From Naegleria gruberi (lineage: Eukaryota), in assembly GCA_000004985.1 (NCBI GenBank), contig GG739164.1: DNA of 5,345 bases, one strand, 5' to 3'. Below the pieces are notes generated by a model. That model saw nothing but the letters and a program-made list of their open reading frames with translations, was not told the DNA's origin and did no database searches. Positions 33 to 5,345 of this stretch are shown here, one piece after another; the stretch's first letter is position 1; each line of letters starts with the position of its first letter. A program made the translations under genes and the position numbers.

Positions 33-427
33 TTACCAACAACATCCACTACCTCCTTCACTTTCGTTTGGTTCACTAGTTGAAATATTTACATTATCAG
101 TTGGCTTATTTCTGACTGGTTCAGTACTTTCGAGAAGATTAGTTGTGTTGAGTATTTGATAGACAACTTCCTCAAATGCCTTATCAACATTTTCCTTTGT
201 TTTGGCTGATGTTTCAATATAGACCATATTATTGGATTTGGCAAAGTTTTGAGCGTCTTGGAGTGAAACTTTTCTTTCTTCCTTCAAATCAATCTTGTTT
301 CCAATCAATAATTTTACACATTCCTCAAATGTTGAATATAAATCACATTCCTTAAGCCAATTCTTAATATTATTAAATGTTTCCTCTCTAGTAACATCAT
401 AAACAAGAATTATTCCATGAGCATTTC
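33..427 (-). CDS. RAB18: Rab18-like exon 8 (terminal exon: (R)[92 protein letters not shown]...GGSGCCW, stop TAA at 33-35)
   Basis: The ORF track reports 33..308, but its initial 'M' is a TTG Leu codon. The reading frame stays open upstream to 427, where the acceptor TTTAG sits (plus 428-429). It contains the G4 NKxD motif (NKID), G5 ETSAK, the Rab YYR.A.G motif and a C-terminal di-cysteine prenylation motif. Confidence 0.9.
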
Positions 428-467
428 CTAAATATTTTGATTAAAATATAAATCTCAAAATACATAC

Positions 468-491
468 TATAATAACTTGATGTAAGAGTTC
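468..491 (-). CDS. RAB18: Rab18-like exon 7, 24-nt micro-exon ((R)TLTSSYY + first base of Arg)
   Basis: Reverse complement is GAACTCTTACATCAAGTTATTATA. The upstream intron carries TTCTAAC (branch-point-like) 12 nt before the acceptor AAG (plus 492-493). The donor is GTATGT (plus 462-467). The result is [17 protein letters not shown]. Confidence 0.8.
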
Positions 492-538
492 CTTAAATTT
501 TGTTAGAATTGATCAGTGAATTTTGGAAGCAAACTTAC

Positions 539-553
539 TAAATCTCTCTTGAC
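539..553 (-). CDS. RAB18: Rab18-like exon 6, 15-nt micro-exon ((G)QERF + first base of Arg)
   Basis: Reverse complement is GTCAAGAGAGATTTA. It is flanked by the acceptor AG (plus 554-555) and the donor GTAAGT (plus 533-538). It completes DTAG|QERF exactly. Confidence 0.8.
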
Positions 554-599
554 CTAATTCAATTCTTTAGAGAATTCTGTTTCTTATTTATACACTTAC

Positions 600-615
600 C
601 TGCAGTATCAAATAT
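600..615 (-). CDS. RAB18: Rab18-like exon 5, 16-nt micro-exon (IFDTA + first base of Gly)
   Basis: Reverse complement is ATATTTGATACTGCAG. It is preceded by AG (plus 616-617), with an in-frame TAA further upstream, and followed by the donor GTAAGT (plus 594-599). The split Gly codon G|GT is completed by exon 6, giving DTAGQERF. Confidence 0.8.
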
Positions 616-660
616 CTTTATCAATTATTTAGAAAAATTCAAATCTATTATTTTACCTAC

Positions 661-706
661 AGTCAATTTTACTTTCTTCCTATTTACATTCATAAATTTA
701 ACCTTG
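661..706 (-). CDS. RAB18: Rab18-like exon 4 ((F)[15 protein letters not shown])
   Basis: Reverse complement is C AAG GTT AAA TTT ATG AAT GTA AAT AGG AAG AAA GTA AAA TTG ACT. The acceptor AG is plus 707-708 and the donor is GTAGGT (plus 655-660 acctac). It supplies exactly 15 residues between TIGVDF and IFDTAG, matching the Rab spacing (K.K......K..KL.I.DTAG). Confidence 0.65.
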
Positions 707-770
707 CTATTTATAAAATCGTCATCATCATATTAAATCCAAATTCAATAATTATTCATTAAAAACATAC

Positions 771-841
771 AAATCCACACCAATTGTTGGCGACATTTGT
801 TCTTTAAACTCATCCTCAGTAAATTGTGTAATAATACTACT
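771..841 (-). CDS. RAB18: Rab18-like exon 3 ([23 protein letters not shown] + 2 nt of Phe codon)
   Basis: Reverse complement is AGTAGTATTATTACACAATTTACTGAGGATGAGTTTAAAGAACAAATGTCGCCAACAATTGGTGTGGATTT, followed by the donor GTATGT (plus 765-770 acatac). The switch-I TIGVD(F) motif is present, and the phase-2 end is completed to TTC by the first base of exon 4. Confidence 0.8.
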
Positions 842-884
842 CTATCGGAATTAATTATCTTCATCAATCTTTAAAAAAACAAAC

Positions 885-911
885 CTTTCCTGTGGCACTA
901 TCACCAACAAG
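885..911 (-). CDS. RAB18: Rab18-like exon 2, 27-nt micro-exon ([9 protein letters not shown]; P-loop first half)
   Basis: Reverse complement is CTTGTTGGTGATAGTGCCACAGGAAAG. The minus-strand acceptor AG is plus 912-913 (ct), and in-frame TAA TAG stops lie immediately upstream in that frame. The donor GTTTGT follows at plus 879-884 (acaaac). Joining to exon 3 gives GDSATGKSS, the G1/P-loop GxxxxGKS. Confidence 0.75.
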
Positions 912-950
912 CTATTAAATCCCGAACCGAACCAAACCAAAATAATCGAT

Positions 951-968
951 TCATCATCATCATCGTCG
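951..968. repeat. Trinucleotide microsatellite (TCA)4(TCG)2 inside Rab18 intron 1
   Basis: Direct reading: tcatcatcatcatcgtcg. Confidence 0.6.
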
Positions 969-1000
969 TTGCAAATACTCTAATAAATTGGAAAACTCAC

Positions 1001-1039
1001 CACAAGTTTGAAATTATGATCAAAAGCCTTTGAAGTCAT
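1001..1039 (-). CDS. RAB18: Rab18-like exon 1 ([13 protein letters not shown]), phase 0 end, donor GTGAGT on minus strand (plus 995-1000 actcac)
   Basis: Reverse complement of 1001-1039 is ATGACTTCAAAGGCTTTTGATCATAATTTCAAACTTGTG. An A-rich context precedes the ATG, with an in-frame stop 7 codons upstream. FKLV joins exon 2 LVGDS to give the Rab N-terminal FKLVLVGDS pattern. Confidence 0.75.
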
Positions 1040-1155
1040 TTTTTTATTTTTAGATTTCTATTAAGAAACACGTTTGCAGTTTTTATTTGAAAGTTCTTCC
1101 CAGTGTCCAAACAATCAATTGAATAATATTGAAAAGAAATTGAAGAATTGAATCG

Positions 1156-1188: not shown

Positions 1189-2259
1189 TCAATTCAAATT
1201 GCAACCAATTGCCTTGTTTGTTTGCACCTTAATTGAATGTAAAATTGGAGTTAATTTGGCAGTTAACTTGGATGGAACCTTTCCATTGGCCTTTTTTGAT
1301 TCATCCATCAATAATACCAAGTCAACTGGAATTGCAACTATTGGAATGGCACTTTTAATCATCAATCCTGTTAAACTCATAATACCTGTGTGGCCATTAG
1401 TCAATCCATCAGATTTATCCAAATCTTGATGCTTGTGGCCTGTCAGAGATTCAACAAATTGAAGAACGTTGACATTTCTATTACCAATTTTCATAACTCT
1501 ACTATCAATGTATGGATCAGTCAACCTTTGTTCATAAATCTTTCTAATCATTGCATTTACTGCTTGAGTATCCCTTTGTAAGAGTTCTTGAATGGACTTG
1601 GCTGATTTCTTGGCATGTTTCCATTCAGCAATTGATGCAGCAACTGTTGCTGTTGTTCCCACACCAACACAACCAATACCAGCACCTGAGGCAATTAATG
1701 AAACACCAAAAGTGAAAGGAGCAGCTACGATACCACCAAGAATCAAGGAAGCTCCAACAATATTGGTTTTTGTACCTTTCACTTTGGTCTTTGCTGTACT
1801 TTGTTGTTTCTTTTCTAATGATTGGATTAAATTGTCCAGCATTTTAATGATTTCCAATCGTTGGACAAGCCACTCATTTGCAGATTGTTCAATGACAGCA
1901 AATCCACAATTTGGATTATCAAAATTGGTACTTTCAAATGTTGGGGTTTGAGGAAGAATTACATTGGTCTGGAAATTTGTTTGTTGACCACCTTTTTCAT
2001 AGCTACTATTACTAGTTGTGGATTGAATTGGTTTAAAGTTGTTGGTTAGTTGTAATGGTTGGGGAGTTATTGGTTGTTGTACAAATTGAGGATTAGAAGT
2101 GATAACTGGAAAATATTGAGCGTTTGGTTGTGGATACATGTATTGAGGAGGATTAGGTGGGTAAAGTTGATATTCTGGTGGTTGATAATTCACTCCAGGT
2201 TCTGTAATGTTTGGTTGAGTAGAGAAATGTGGATATTGAGGAGAAACTTGTTGATGCAT
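1189..2259 (-). CDS. ApoL (apolipoprotein L)-like membrane protein, 356 aa, single exon. It has an N-terminal P/Q/Y-rich low-complexity region with PPxY motifs, a central ~45-residue Gly/Ala-rich hydrophobic hairpin, and a C-terminal amphipathic region
   Basis: The 1071-nt ORF is intact. The ATG at 2257-2259 is the first after an in-frame stop 10 codons upstream. The segments KVKGTKTNIVGASLILGGIVAAPFTFGVSLIASGAGIGCVGVGTTATVAASIAEWKHAKK and PVDLVLLMDESKKANGKVPS align, from memory, with human APOL1 [42 protein letters not shown]...TSSTMDYGKK and LDVVYLVYESKHLHEGAKSE. The N-terminus contains PPEY and PPQY. Confidence 0.8.
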   Translation of the reverse strand: MHQQVSPQYPHFSTQPNITEPGVNYQPPEYQLYPPNPPQYMYPQPNAQYFPVITSNPQFVQQPITPQPLQLTNNFKPIQSTTSNSSYEKGGQQTNFQTNVILPQTPTFESTNFDNPNCGFAVIEQSANEWLVQRLEIIKMLDNLIQSLEKKQQSTAKTKVKGTKTNIVGASLILGGIVAAPFTFGVSLIASGAGIGCVGVGTTATVAASIAEWKHAKKSAKSIQELLQRDTQAVNAMIRKIYEQRLTDPYIDSRVMKIGNRNVNVLQFVESLTGHKHQDLDKSDGLTNGHTGIMSLTGLMIKSAIPIVAIPVDLVLLMDESKKANGKVPSKLTAKLTPILHSIKVQTNKAIGCNLN

Positions 2260-2549: not shown

Positions 2550-2769
2550 TCACAAAATGTTAACAATTTCATATTCAATGCAATTATTTTCTTGTTTTAT
2601 TTTGTTCATTGTTGAACTAATTGATTTGATATTATGTACATTTGATTTTCTTTCTTTACTACCACTAATTATGTCAATAGTTTCAAATTCAGATAATAAA
2701 CCATGGTAGTTATTTATCTTATCAGTGATTGATTCTTGTTTGATGCATTCCACAGTGAATGTTGATTCG
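2550..2769 (-). CDS. Hypothetical ORF fragment (>=72 codons, ...ESTFTVECIKQESITDKINNYHGLLSEFETIDIISGSKERKSNVHNIKSISSTMNKIKQENNCIEYEIVNIL*) that runs out of the assembly gap. It may be the 3' end of a gene whose body lies in the gap
   Basis: The open frame continues from the stop at 2550-2552 up to the first N at 2770. The track 'M' at 2753 is a GTG. The product is hydrophilic. I recognise no domain. Confidence 0.2.
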
Positions 2770-3817
2770 NNNNNNNNNNNNNNNNNNNNNNNNNNNNNNN
2801 NNNNNNNNNNNNNNNNNNNNNNNNNNNNNNNNNNNNNNNNNNNNNNNNNNNNNNNNNNNNNNNNNNNNNNNNNNNNNNNNNNNNNNNNNNNNNNNNNNNN
2901 NNNNNNNNNNNNNNNNNNNNNNNNNNNNNNNNNNNNNNNNNNNNNNNNNNNNNNNNNNNNNNNNNNNNNNNNNNNNNNNNNNNNNNNNNNNNNNNNNNNN
3001 NNNNNNNNNNNNNNNNNNNNNNNNNNNNNNNNNNNNNNNNNNNNNNNNNNNNNNNNNNNNNNNNNNNNNNNNNNNNNNNNNNNNNNNNNNNNNNNNNNNN
3101 NNNNNNNNNNNNNNNNNNNNNNNNNNNNNNNNNNNNNNNNNNNNNNNNNNNNNNNNNNNNNNNNNNNNNNNNNNNNNNNNNNNNNNNNNNNNNNNNNNNN
3201 NNNNNNNNNNNNNNNNNNNNNNNNNNNNNNNNNNNNNNNNNNNNNNNNNNNNNNNNNNNNNNNNNNNNNNNNNNNNNNNNNNNNNNNNNNNNNNNNNNNN
3301 NNNNNNNNNNNNNNNNNNNNNNNNNNNNNNNNNNNNNNNNNNNNNNNNNNNNNNNNNNNNNNNNNNNNNNNNNNNNNNNNNNNNNNNNNNNNNNNNNNNN
3401 NNNNNNNNNNNNNNNNNNNNNNNNNNNNNNNNNNNNNNNNNNNNNNNNNNNNNNNNNNNNNNNNNNNNNNNNNNNNNNNNNNNNNNNNNNNNNNNNNNNN
3501 NNNNNNNNNNNNNNNNNNNNNNNNNNNNNNNNNNNNNNNNNNNNNNNNNNNNNNNNNNNNNNNNNNNNNNNNNNNNNNNNNNNNNNNNNNNNNNNNNNNN
3601 NNNNNNNNNNNNNNNNNNNNNNNNNNNNNNNNNNNNNNNNNNNNNNNNNNNNNNNNNNNNNNNNNNNNNNNNNNNNNNNNNNNNNNNNNNNNNNNNNNNN
3701 NNNNNNNNNNNNNNNNNNNNNNNNNNNNNNNNNNNNNNNNNNNNNNNNNNNNNNNNNNNNNNNNNNNNNNNNNNNNNNNNNNNNNNNNNNNNNNNNNNNN
3801 NNNNNNNNNNNNNNNNN
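2770..3817. other. Assembly gap, 1,048 consecutive N
   Basis: Direct count: 51 N on the line starting at 2761, 16 full lines of 60, and 37 N on the line starting at 3781. Confidence 1.
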
Positions 3818-3971
3818 ATCAGTTCAATCAAATTGAATATTGTAGATTTTCAAATCATAAACAGATGACAACTTTTGATTGAGCATTTTGATTCTGAAAT
3901 TAAATCACTTCTTTGTTGAAATTTCCAGCTTGTGATTTATTTTCCAATCTCCAATTTTTTTGAGTTTGACG

Positions 3972-4480
3972 ATGAAAAAAATACCTCAACAAGACCATCC
4001 TCCGGATACGGAAGGGAGTAATTTGCTTGCTGACAGGATTTTTGTGTTAGAGAGAGCAATTGAAACCTACCAAAAGGAAAACAATAATCTCCGTGACTAT
4101 CTTCAACAACTTGTAAATATATGTAATGGTCACCCGTTATTGAATAATAATAATAATAATCCCATCAAACCTGTAAATAATAATCTGATCAATACCCAAC
4201 CATCAGAAAATGAAAATCTATTTATTACTAGAAATCCAGTAAATGTTAGAAATCTACCAACTAGTAGAAATTTAATTAATGGTGGAAATTTCTTGACTGA
4301 GACAGTTCAAATATGCGATAGTAATCCTAAAAATAGAACTGTCAGTTATGCTGATATTACAAGATTAGCTCCTATTAAAGCTCAGCCATCTATTAAGAAA
4401 ACAATAGCAAAACAAAAATCAACAACTAATAAGATGAAAAGAAATATGGCAACTAATACTAGACCTAACAAACGTAAATC
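3972..4480 (+). CDS. 5' part of an N-rich uncharacterised protein gene (MKKIPQQDHPPDTEGSNLLADRIFVLERAIETYQKENNNLRDYLQQL...NNNNNN...KRKS), interrupted at 4480/4481 by a transposon. In the present sequence the frame reads 4 more codons into the element (RVY*) and stops at 4491-4493
   Basis: The first ATG is at 3972; the track start at 3960 is TTG, and an in-frame TGA lies at 3933-3935. There is a predicted coiled-coil-like N-terminus and a poly-Asn run. The frame continues after the element, see 4903..5293. Confidence 0.6.
4143..4160 (+). repeat. (AAT)6 microsatellite encoding poly-Asn within the CDS
   Basis: Direct reading: aataataataataataat. Confidence 0.9.
4473..4480. repeat. Target-site duplication, left copy (CGTAAATC)
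   Basis: An identical 8-mer sits immediately outside both terminal inverted repeats (4473-4480 and 4895-4902). Confidence 0.8.
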
Positions 4481-4500
4481 GAGAGTATATTAATATCCAA
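4481..4500. repeat. Left terminal inverted repeat of MITE
   Basis: gagagtatattaatatccaa, a perfect reverse complement of 4875-4894. Confidence 0.85.
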
Positions 4501-4874
4501 TATCTATCCCAAACCGCTTTTTTTGGATATGGCTTTTTAAAAAGGGCAATCTGGCTAAATTTTTACGGGCTTGGCTTTTTGGATAAATCTTGGATTGGAT
4601 AATATTATTTGAAAATGTGTCGTGTTTGAGCAATTGTCAACAAGGAATGCAGGCAAATCACTCTACGAATATTTATTAGATTATTATCAATACTAATTGC
4701 AATAAATCAACAATTTTTCGATATAAATTTGGAATAATTTATTTTTGAAATAATTCATTTTTTAGTGGAAATTTCTTGACTTATTTTTGGATTTAGGTTT
4801 TGGCTTTTTGGTTCAATTTGGCTTTTTGCCGATTTTTTATTCACCTATATCCAAAAACTGGTTTGGGATGGATT

Positions 4875-4894
4875 TTGGATATTAATATACTCTC
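4875..4894. repeat. Right terminal inverted repeat of MITE
   Basis: ttggatattaatatactctc. Confidence 0.85.
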
Positions 4895-4902
4895 CGTAAA
4901 TC
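4895..4902. repeat. Target-site duplication, right copy (CGTAAATC)
   Basis: Identical to 4473-4480. Confidence 0.8.
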
Positions 4903-5293
4903 TAATTACAATCTTAATCAAATAATTAATGTAATTTGCTACAAAGATGTTACTAACGAATTTGTTGAACAAATTACAGACCTACTCGGTGACTCTGTAA
5001 TCATTAGAGTTAATCGATACTGTAATAATATTATTAATGTAATTTGCCCTGATGAAACCAGTTATAAAGAGTGTTTCAATCAATTAGTGCAAGGAAGTCA
5101 TGGAGGAAAATTCATATTAGAATGCTTTCCATCTCCAGCAATCTTTAATCCTAAACCTTTAGCACTTTCACATACTACTTCCAGTAAAACTACTCACCTT
5201 AAAATGCTAGAAAACATTATTAGCAAATATATATTGGAAGATAATATTTCTGTTGAGGACTCTACACTAACTATTCTCATAACCAATTTATAA
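4903..5293 (+). CDS. 3' part of the same N-rich gene (NYNLNQIINVICYKDVTNEFVEQITDLLGDSVIIRVNRYCNNIINVICPDETSYKECFNQLVQGSHGGKFILECFPSPAIFNPKPLALSHTTSSKTTHLKMLENIISKYILEDNISVEDSTLTILITNL*). It is in frame with 3972..4480 once the element and one TSD copy (422 bp) are removed
   Basis: I translated 4901 onward by hand. There is no stop for 130 codons, up to TAA at 5291-5293. The frame (positions congruent to 2 mod 3) is exactly the one predicted from the upstream frame 0 plus a 422-bp insertion. The ORF track saw only its distal half, 5087..5293. Confidence 0.55.
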
Positions 5294-5345
5294 TTAGAAT
5301 ATCATTTGAGGATCAAACTATTTGCTCTCAAATGGCACAAAATCT

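What the first reader, a model, noticed from the sequence alone, without database searches (positions are those of the whole stretch)
4473..4902. MITE with perfect TIRs and exact 8-bp TSD inserted inside a protein-coding exon
A 414-bp element is bounded by 20-bp perfect inverted repeats: 4481-4500 gagagtatattaatatccaa and 4875-4894 ttggatattaatatactctc. The exact 8-bp direct repeat cgtaaatc flanks it on both sides. The arms remain similar for ~50 bp and the interior is non-coding. This is the textbook signature of a cut-and-paste DNA transposon derivative. An 8-bp TSD points to the hAT, P or Merlin superfamily. The element sits inside an otherwise continuous 303-codon ORF. The host stop codon now in use (TAA at 4491-4493) is contributed by the element's own TIR.
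Basis: seen in the sequence. Interest (0 to 1): 0.75.

Follow-up and report, generated by a model that had tools for sequence, protein, structure and literature searches.

The report
Recent MITE insertion in Naegleria ORF
A 414-bp non-coding "cut-and-paste" transposon remnant has recently jumped into an open reading frame of the amoeba Naegleria gruberi and cut the annotated protein short; a second, uninterrupted copy of the same gene in the same genome proves the insertion, and the case is an ordinary, textbook one.

Summary
Positions 4481-4500 and 4875-4894 are perfect 20-nt inverted repeats. The arms stay alignable for about 52 nt. An exact 8-bp CGTAAATC flanks both ends. The 414-bp interior is non-coding.

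The window is a whole 5,345-bp scaffold of Naegleria gruberi. Removing the element and one CGTAAATC restores a 299-codon ORF (303 counted from an upstream TTG). The annotated protein XP_002668281.1 (173 aa) ends ...KRKSRVY*, so it reads into the repeat and uses its TAA.

The key result is an empty site. A second N. gruberi protein (XP_002678260.1, 938 aa, on a 502-kb scaffold) is identical over residues 1-278 and reads ...RPNKRKS|NYNLNQ... across the junction. Canonical splicing of a filled site cannot give this reading. This is therefore a genuine, recent insertion of a non-autonomous DNA transposon.

Two things remain untested because no N. gruberi DNA could be reached: copy number and superfamily. 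hAT-like is the best guess. The 8-bp duplication fits, but the GAGAG terminus misses the YARNG motif by one base.

The host ORF belongs to a Naegleria-only family. In the intact copy it runs into a 5'-truncated LINE, so it may not be a healthy cellular gene. The finding is ordinary: a new member of a known kind.

The parts
4473..4480 (.). Left copy of the 8-bp target-site duplication CGTAAATC
   Evidence: identical to 4895-4902; the neighbouring bases differ, so it is exactly 8 bp.
4481..4894 (.). The 414-bp non-autonomous element (MITE-like), 29% G+C, no coding capacity
   Evidence: As single-stranded DNA it folds end to end with z = -6.7 against shuffles. It is absent from the paralogous/allelic copy P0002.
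4481..4500 (+). Left terminal inverted repeat, 20/20 perfect; holds the 10-bp palindrome ATATTAATAT and the TAA now used as stop codon (4491-4493)
4875..4894 (-). Right terminal inverted repeat, 20/20 perfect
4501..4549 (+). Left subterminal arm, still alignable with the right arm (47/52 with two small indels over the first ~52 nt of the element; 75% over 69 nt ungapped). Carries TTTTTGGAT and GGCTTTTT motifs; further motif copies lie out to 4600
   Evidence: (I1, D4, D9).
4784..4874 (-). Right subterminal region with the same short motifs. GGCTTTTT starts at 4531, 4573, 4802 and 4820, all on the + strand. TTTTTGGAT starts at 4520, 4576 and 4784 (+) and 4849 (-). Neither occurs elsewhere in the window. 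These are candidate transposase-binding repeats (inferred)
   Evidence: TRF array 4798-4828.
4895..4902 (.). Right copy of the 8-bp target-site duplication CGTAAATC
3972..4493 (+). Truncated host ORF as annotated (P0001 = XP_002668281.1, NAEGRDRAFT_76809, 173 aa); the last 4 codons and the stop come from the junction and repeat (S-R-V-Y-*)
4903..5293 (+). Displaced downstream part of the host ORF (129 codons open), in frame with 3972-4480 once the element and one duplication copy are removed. A 1-nt deletion relative to P0002 near 5266-5268 shifts the frame; the shifted frame stays open to the scaffold end (5345)
   Evidence: the paralogue P0007 supports the P0002 frame.
4765..4781 (+). 17-nt stretch inside the element identical to host CDS 4282-4298 (25/30 over 4752-4781 vs 4269-4298); possible filler or captured host DNA, unexplained
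   Evidence: D1; 5 of 1000 shuffles reach 17 nt.

Best explanation
It is a 414-bp internally non-coding derivative of a class II (cut-and-paste) DNA transposon in Naegleria gruberi. A transposase encoded elsewhere in the genome would bind the 20-bp terminal inverted repeats, and probably also the repeated subterminal TTTTTGGAT / GGCTTTTT motifs. It would excise the element and join it to target DNA cut with an 8-bp stagger. Repair of the two single-stranded gaps then produced the CGTAAATC duplication. The element landed inside an ORF, between the codons for ...NKRKS and NYNLNQ.... Translation now runs four codons into the repeat and stops at its TAA, which gives the 173-aa annotated product. 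The insertion is recent: the repeats and the duplication are perfect, and the flanks are identical at protein level (278 of 278 aa) to an uninterrupted copy elsewhere in the same assembly. Shown here: the anatomy, the statistics, the restored frame, the empty site and the truncated annotation. Inferred: trans-mobilisation by a DDE transposase, the role of the subterminal motifs, and the superfamily. hAT-like is my best guess at about 0.4; Mutator-like, P, Merlin, Zisupton or an unclassified family share the rest.
For: There are perfect 20-nt repeats and an exact abutting 8-bp duplication, far beyond shuffles. The arms are alignable for ~52 nt. There is no coding capacity and no protein or RNA-family match. 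Excision restores one frame of 299 codons. The empty site is in P0002, in the same 90% cluster as P0001 but on a 502,116-bp scaffold; it reads ...RPNKRKSNYNLNQ... and is identical over aa 1-278. Homology with the paralogue P0007 runs across the insertion point (P0002 155-322, E 6e-29), so the uninterrupted state is ancestral. A filled site cannot be spliced canonically to give P0002, because only GT..CC ends are available. hAT elements are characterised by 8-bp duplications and YARNG termini (PMC3014272), and GAGAG matches 4 of those 5 positions. Subterminal short repeats occur in both arms.
Against: No other copy and no autonomous partner could be looked for. Scans with the repeat in metagenome, viral and prokaryotic collections gave only single chance hits inside unrelated genes. 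The first base of the terminus (G) breaks the hAT YARNG rule. The target CGTAAATC does not fit the common hAT nTnnnnAn pattern, although it does fit NNTNNANN, seen for some hAT families in PMC3014272. The empty site is seen only at protein level, not as DNA.
Confidence: 0.9

Rival explanations
1. The element behaves as an intron (an 'introner'-type MITE): it is removed from the mRNA, so the ORF is not really truncated.
For: A good donor-like C|GTAAAT lies in the left duplication copy (4474). The first AG after the element (4945-4946) is in phase with it and gives a 473-nt in-frame removal. Introns of the neighbouring Rab gene use GTRNGT...YAG.
Against: No precise removal is possible with canonical sites, because all nine equivalent 422-nt deletions lack GT..AG. 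The only in-frame cryptic intron would delete 17 codons that are conserved in P0002 and P0007. At 473 nt it would be several times longer than the ~60-110-nt introns seen in the window. The existing gene model reads into the repeat and stops. No transcript data were available.
Confidence: 0.04
2. The filled state is ancestral and the uninterrupted copy (P0002) arose by precise excision or deletion of the element.
For: Cut-and-paste elements do excise, and recombination between the two 8-bp direct repeats could delete exactly 422 bp.
Against: Excision of elements with 8-bp duplications normally leaves footprints, which would shift the frame; P0002 is in frame with a single copy of the target. 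The divergent paralogue P0007 (34% identity) is also uninterrupted across this point, so the uninterrupted state predates the two near-identical copies. The perfect repeats and duplication point to a young insertion.
Confidence: 0.03
3. It is a non-mobile structured palindrome or an assembly artefact of a small, gap-containing scaffold.
For: The window is a 5.3-kb scaffold with a ~1-kb gap. Its two halves match genes on two different large scaffolds. The element folds into a long hairpin.
Against: A chimeric join would not create an exact 8-bp direct repeat abutting perfect 20-nt inverted repeats in the middle of an otherwise continuous frame. Presence in one copy and absence in the other at exactly element plus one duplication is the signature of transposition.
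Confidence: 0.02

Closest known systems
Non-autonomous hAT elements / hAT-type MITEs (e.g. Ds, and the hAT-N families described in PMC3014272)
   Same: 8-bp target-site duplication; short (10-25 bp) terminal inverted repeats; terminus xAGAG like hobo/Hermes-type CAGAG; short repeated subterminal motifs in both arms; size of a few hundred bp; no ORF; presence/absence polymorphism at a gene.
   Different: The first base is G, not the Y of YARNG. The target does not fit nTnnnnAn. No hAT transposase sharing these ends was identified. Copy number is unknown.
Mutator-like elements (MULEs) and their short derivatives
   Same: The terminus begins GAGA, as in maize Mu (own knowledge). The element is AT-rich, has arms longer than the perfect core, and inserted in a genic region.
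   Different: MULEs typically make 9-11-bp duplications and have repeats of 100 bp or more (own knowledge). Here the duplication is exactly 8 bp and the arm is ~52 nt.
Introner-type MITEs (Micromonas, Aureococcus and others; own knowledge of Huff et al. 2016 and Gozashti et al. 2022)
   Same: A short element with inverted repeats and a target duplication, inserted in coding sequence; the duplicated target happens to contain GTAAAT.
   Different: There is no 3' AG at or near the element end, so no precise canonical splice is possible. The annotated protein is truncated rather than rescued.
Zisupton / KDZ, P and Merlin superfamilies
   Same: All make duplications of about 8 bp (Zisupton 8 bp: PMC12730594; P 7-8 bp and Merlin 8-9 bp: own knowledge).
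   Different: Nothing beyond the duplication length could be compared. The P-type terminus CATG is not present.

Membership tests
MITE (structural class) | Short (<~800 bp) with terminal inverted repeats | tested here: met
   414 bp; 20/20 perfect repeats; arms ~52 nt.
MITE (structural class) | Flanked by a target-site duplication of fixed length | tested here: met
   Exact 8-bp CGTAAATC on both sides; a single copy of the target in the empty site of P0002.
MITE (structural class) | No coding capacity | tested here: met
   Longest ATG-led ORF is 21 aa; six-frame peptides have no hit in 5.8e9 proteins.
MITE (structural class) | Many homogeneous copies in the genome, each with a different duplication | not testable with these tools
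   No N. gruberi genomic DNA is reachable. Scans with the repeat in metagenome, viral and prokaryote collections gave only chance hits.
hAT superfamily | 8-bp target-site duplication | tested here: met
   criterion from PMC3014272 and PMC12730594.
hAT superfamily | Terminal motif 5'-YARNG | tested here: not met
   The terminus is GAGAG. Positions 2-5 fit ARNG, but position 1 is G, not C/T (criterion).
hAT superfamily | Autonomous partner with the same ends encoding a hAT (BED/DDE/hATC) transposase | not testable with these tools
   No route to N. gruberi DNA or to a family-wide transposase search.
Mutator-like elements | 9-11-bp duplication and long (>=100 bp) repeats | tested here: not met
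   8 bp exactly; arms ~52-69 nt. The criterion is from own knowledge.
Introner elements | Element plus duplication supplies functional GT...AG so that it is spliced out precisely | tested here: not met
   The nine equivalent excision windows give CG..TC, GT..CC, TA..CG and so on, and none gives GT..AG.

The most novel reading that the evidence does not exclude
The element may represent a still-active, so far unclassified DNA-transposon family of Heterolobosea (8-bp duplication, GAGAG termini), heterozygous or copy-specific in the reference clone NEG-M. Its interior carries a 17-30-nt piece copied from the very ORF it sits in (4765-4781 = 4282-4298). That could mean the short element was generated in situ, by interrupted gap repair with local filler DNA, from a longer autonomous copy that once occupied this site.
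Probability: 0.1. Interest if true: 0.45.

Novelty: new member of a known kind. Interest (0 to 1): 0.22.

Why it matters
The finding has modest value in three respects.

- It gives direct evidence of recent DNA-transposon activity in Naegleria gruberi. Repeats make up only ~5% of this genome (PMC6125883), and most remain unclassified (PMC12344493).
- It corrects an annotation. XP_002668281.1 is a transposon-truncated product whose last residues and stop codon come from the terminal repeat.
- It provides a clean query (repeat plus duplication) for cataloguing the family and finding its transposase.

It does not bear on any open question about transposition itself.

Tried and rejected
- Other copies through proteins: all six-frame peptides of the element were concatenated and searched against 5.8e9 proteins. 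Nothing scored at E<=10.
- Other copies through DNA: the 20-mer repeat in metagenome contigs and genome contigs, and the 18-mer in viral contigs, each gave a single hit. The metagenome and viral hits, which I read, lie inside unrelated coding sequence. The prokaryote hit is a lone match in a Treponemataceae MAG with no second arm. All three are chance. A 26-nt subterminal consensus in viral contigs gave nothing.
- Genomic DNA of the empty-site locus and of paralogues: the look-up of encoding contigs has no record for P0001, P0003, P0002 or P0007.
- Known RNA or tRNA origin: none.
- Introner or precise splicing: rejected.
- Identity of the host ORF: no Pfam family, no PDB sequence match with a two-sequence profile, and a single-sequence AlphaFold model too poor to use (pLDDT 38). 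HMMER over 1.84e9 representatives found only one real relative, the N. gruberi paralogue P0007.
- Literature: no paper in the library describes N. gruberi MITEs or assigns its DNA transposons to superfamilies. The genome paper is not held.

Full report
**1. The observation**

Positions 4481-4500 (GAGAGTATATTAATATCCAA) are the exact reverse complement of 4875-4894. The octamer CGTAAATC lies directly outside both repeats, at 4473-4480 and 4895-4902. The next bases outward differ, so the direct repeat is exactly 8 bp.

The repeat finder extends the arms to 69 nt at 75% identity (I1). A gapped alignment gives 47/52 over the first ~52 nt.

This is not chance. In 300 dinucleotide-preserving shuffles of the two contigs, the longest perfect inverted repeat was 16 nt (mean 12), against 20 observed. 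With up to three mismatches the 20-mer occurs only at these two places, where 0.01 is expected.

The 414-bp element is 29% G+C (window 31%). Its longest ATG-led ORF is 21 aa. It has no Rfam or tRNA match. As single-stranded DNA it folds end to end (z = -6.7).

**2. The frame and the organism**

Removing 4481-4902 (the element plus one octamer) joins two open segments into one frame, from ATG 3972 to TAA 5291-5293.

A protein search with the restored ORF returned one hit. It is a 173-aa 'predicted protein' of Naegleria gruberi (XP_002668281.1, NAEGRDRAFT_76809), 100% identical, whose contig is 5,345 bp. The window is therefore an entire small scaffold of the N. gruberi assembly. The annotated protein ends ...KRKSRVY.

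**3. The empty site**

This is the decisive result. The 90%-identity cluster of that protein has a second member, P0002 (XP_002678260.1, NAEGRDRAFT_66315, 938 aa), on a 502,116-bp scaffold. Its sequence reads ...MATNTRPNKRKS|NYNLNQIINVICYKD.... This is exactly the junction predicted for an unoccupied target. It is identical to the window's restored ORF at every one of residues 1-278.

I checked whether splicing out a resident element could have produced this model. The nine equivalent 422-nt deletions have ends CG..TC, GT..CC, TA..CG and so on, and none has GT..AG. The only in-frame canonical alternative (4474-4946) would remove 17 codons that P0002 retains.

A divergent N. gruberi paralogue also aligns continuously across the insertion point. 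This is P0007 (NAEGRDRAFT_75497, 34% identity, E = 6e-29 over P0002 155-322). The uninterrupted state is therefore ancestral, and the window carries a young insertion. The caveat is that the empty site is seen at protein level only.

**4. What the host ORF is**

The ORF has no Pfam domain. It has no homologue outside Naegleria, either in the word-indexed search or in a full HMMER pass over 1.84e9 representatives.

In P0002 the ORF continues beyond residue 316 into sequence that is 63% identical to P0006. P0006 begins with an APE-type 'endonuclease-reverse transcriptase' domain. P0002 itself has an RNase H domain at 651-720. Residues 317-938 of P0002 are therefore the post-endonuclease part of a non-LTR retrotransposon ORF2.

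Homology to P0007 ends at about 322, and the window scaffold ends at the residue equivalent to 316. The assembly evidently broke at the edge of the repeated LINE sequence. The simplest reading is that a Naegleria-specific gene was first truncated by a 5'-truncated LINE, and one copy was later hit by the MITE.

The window copy also has a 1-nt deletion near 5266-5268 relative to P0002. P0007 supports the P0002 frame. So 'protein-coding exon' is correct in the sense of an annotated ORF with a conserved paralogue, but the ORF may already have been non-functional.

**5. Allele or paralogue**

The left contig of the window encodes an ApoL-domain ORF (1189-2259, minus strand). It is identical over 337 aa to P0004, which lies on a different 707-kb scaffold. 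The right contig matches the 502-kb scaffold.

Two readings remain. The small scaffold could be an alternative haplotype bridging two main scaffolds, which would make the insertion heterozygous. Or it could be a separate near-identical locus. I could not decide between them. Either way, presence versus absence at otherwise identical sequence demonstrates transposition.

**6. Mechanism**

The anatomy is that of a non-autonomous class II element. A trans-acting transposase recognises the terminal repeats and makes an 8-bp staggered cut in the target. Gap repair then duplicates the octamer.

Both arms carry short repeated motifs that occur nowhere else in the window:
- GGCTTTTT occurs four times, all on the + strand.
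- TTTTTGGAT occurs three times on the + strand and once on the - strand.

Such subterminal repeats are typical transposase-binding sites in hAT, P and CACTA elements (own knowledge). This step is inferred, not shown.

**7. Superfamily**

- hAT: elements are characterised by 8-bp duplications and YARNG termini (PMC3014272; PMC12730594). GAGAG fits ARNG at positions 2-5 but has G instead of Y at position 1. CGTAAATC does not fit nTnnnnAn.
- Mutator-like: these elements share a GAGA start, but normally give 9-11-bp duplications and have long repeats (own knowledge).
- Zisupton, P and Merlin: Zisupton (8 bp), P and Merlin remain formally possible.

I rate hAT-like at about 0.4 and do not file the element as a member.

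**8. What could not be tested**

None of the DNA collections holds it:
- The look-up of encoding contigs has no record of any N. gruberi protein that I tried.
- Scans with the repeat in metagenomes, viral contigs and prokaryotic genomes gave one isolated hit each. The two I read lie inside unrelated coding sequence, and none has a second arm, so all are chance.
- Six-frame peptides of the element hit no predicted protein.

The literature held here says that N. gruberi has ~5% repeats in 784 scaffolds (PMC6125883). It also says that only a small fraction of those repeats can be classified as known transposable elements (PMC12344493). No paper describes this family.

**9. Rivals**

- Introner-like splicing is excluded as a precise event and is unsupported as a cryptic one.
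- Precise excision in P0002 is unlikely, given the absence of a footprint and the uninterrupted paralogue.
- A structural palindrome or an assembly artefact cannot explain an exact 8-bp duplication together with presence/absence.

**10. One unexplained detail**

A 17-nt stretch inside the element (4765-4781) is identical to host coding sequence 483 nt upstream (4282-4298). The match is 25/30 over the wider stretch. Only 5 of 1000 shuffles reach 17 nt. It could be chance, or filler DNA from interrupted gap repair.

**11. Verdict**

This is a real and recent insertion of a MITE-type DNA transposon into an N. gruberi ORF, with an empty site in the same assembly. It is a textbook case: a new, unclassified member of a known kind, of low to moderate interest.

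Noticed in passing
window 4282-4298 and 4765-4781 (wider: 4269-4298 vs 4752-4781): A 17-nt exact direct match (25/30 over 30 nt) between the host coding sequence and the interior of the element. Only 5 of 1000 dinucleotide shuffles of the element reach 17 nt. It may be filler or captured host DNA, or chance.
   Followed up: partly
window 5266-5268 and 5269-5345: The window copy of the ORF lacks 1 nt relative to P0002 (VED-STL... vs VEE-LYTNYSH...). The shifted frame stays open to the scaffold end and is the one conserved in paralogue P0007. It is either a real frameshift or a sequencing error in a low-coverage scaffold.
   Followed up: partly
window end (5345) = P0002 residue 316; P0002 residues 317-938: The intact copy continues into a 5'-truncated, internally deleted non-LTR retrotransposon ORF2 (63% identity to P0006, which has an APE endonuclease; RNase H at 651-720). 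The scaffold ends exactly at the LINE boundary. The 938-aa gene model is probably a host-ORF/LINE chimera.
   Followed up: partly
window 1189-2259 (-) and 2550-2753 (-): An ApoL-domain (apolipoprotein L-like) ORF, an unusual domain for a protist. It is identical over 337 aa to P0004 on a different 707-kb scaffold. A 98%-identical 356-aa version (P0005) comes from an ENA assembly on a 2.4-kb contig.
   Followed up: no
window 33-1040 (-): A Rab/Ras-like small GTPase gene split by several short (~60-110 nt) GT...AG introns, ending in a CCW-type C-terminus. It served as the local reference for N. gruberi splice sites.
   Followed up: no
window 2770-3827: A 1,058-N assembly gap separates two contigs. 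Their genes match two different large scaffolds (707 kb and 502 kb). The small scaffold may be an alternative haplotype bridging them, or a mis-join.
   Followed up: no
window 4486-4495 and 4880-4889: Each terminal repeat contains the perfect 10-bp palindrome ATATTAATAT.
   Followed up: no
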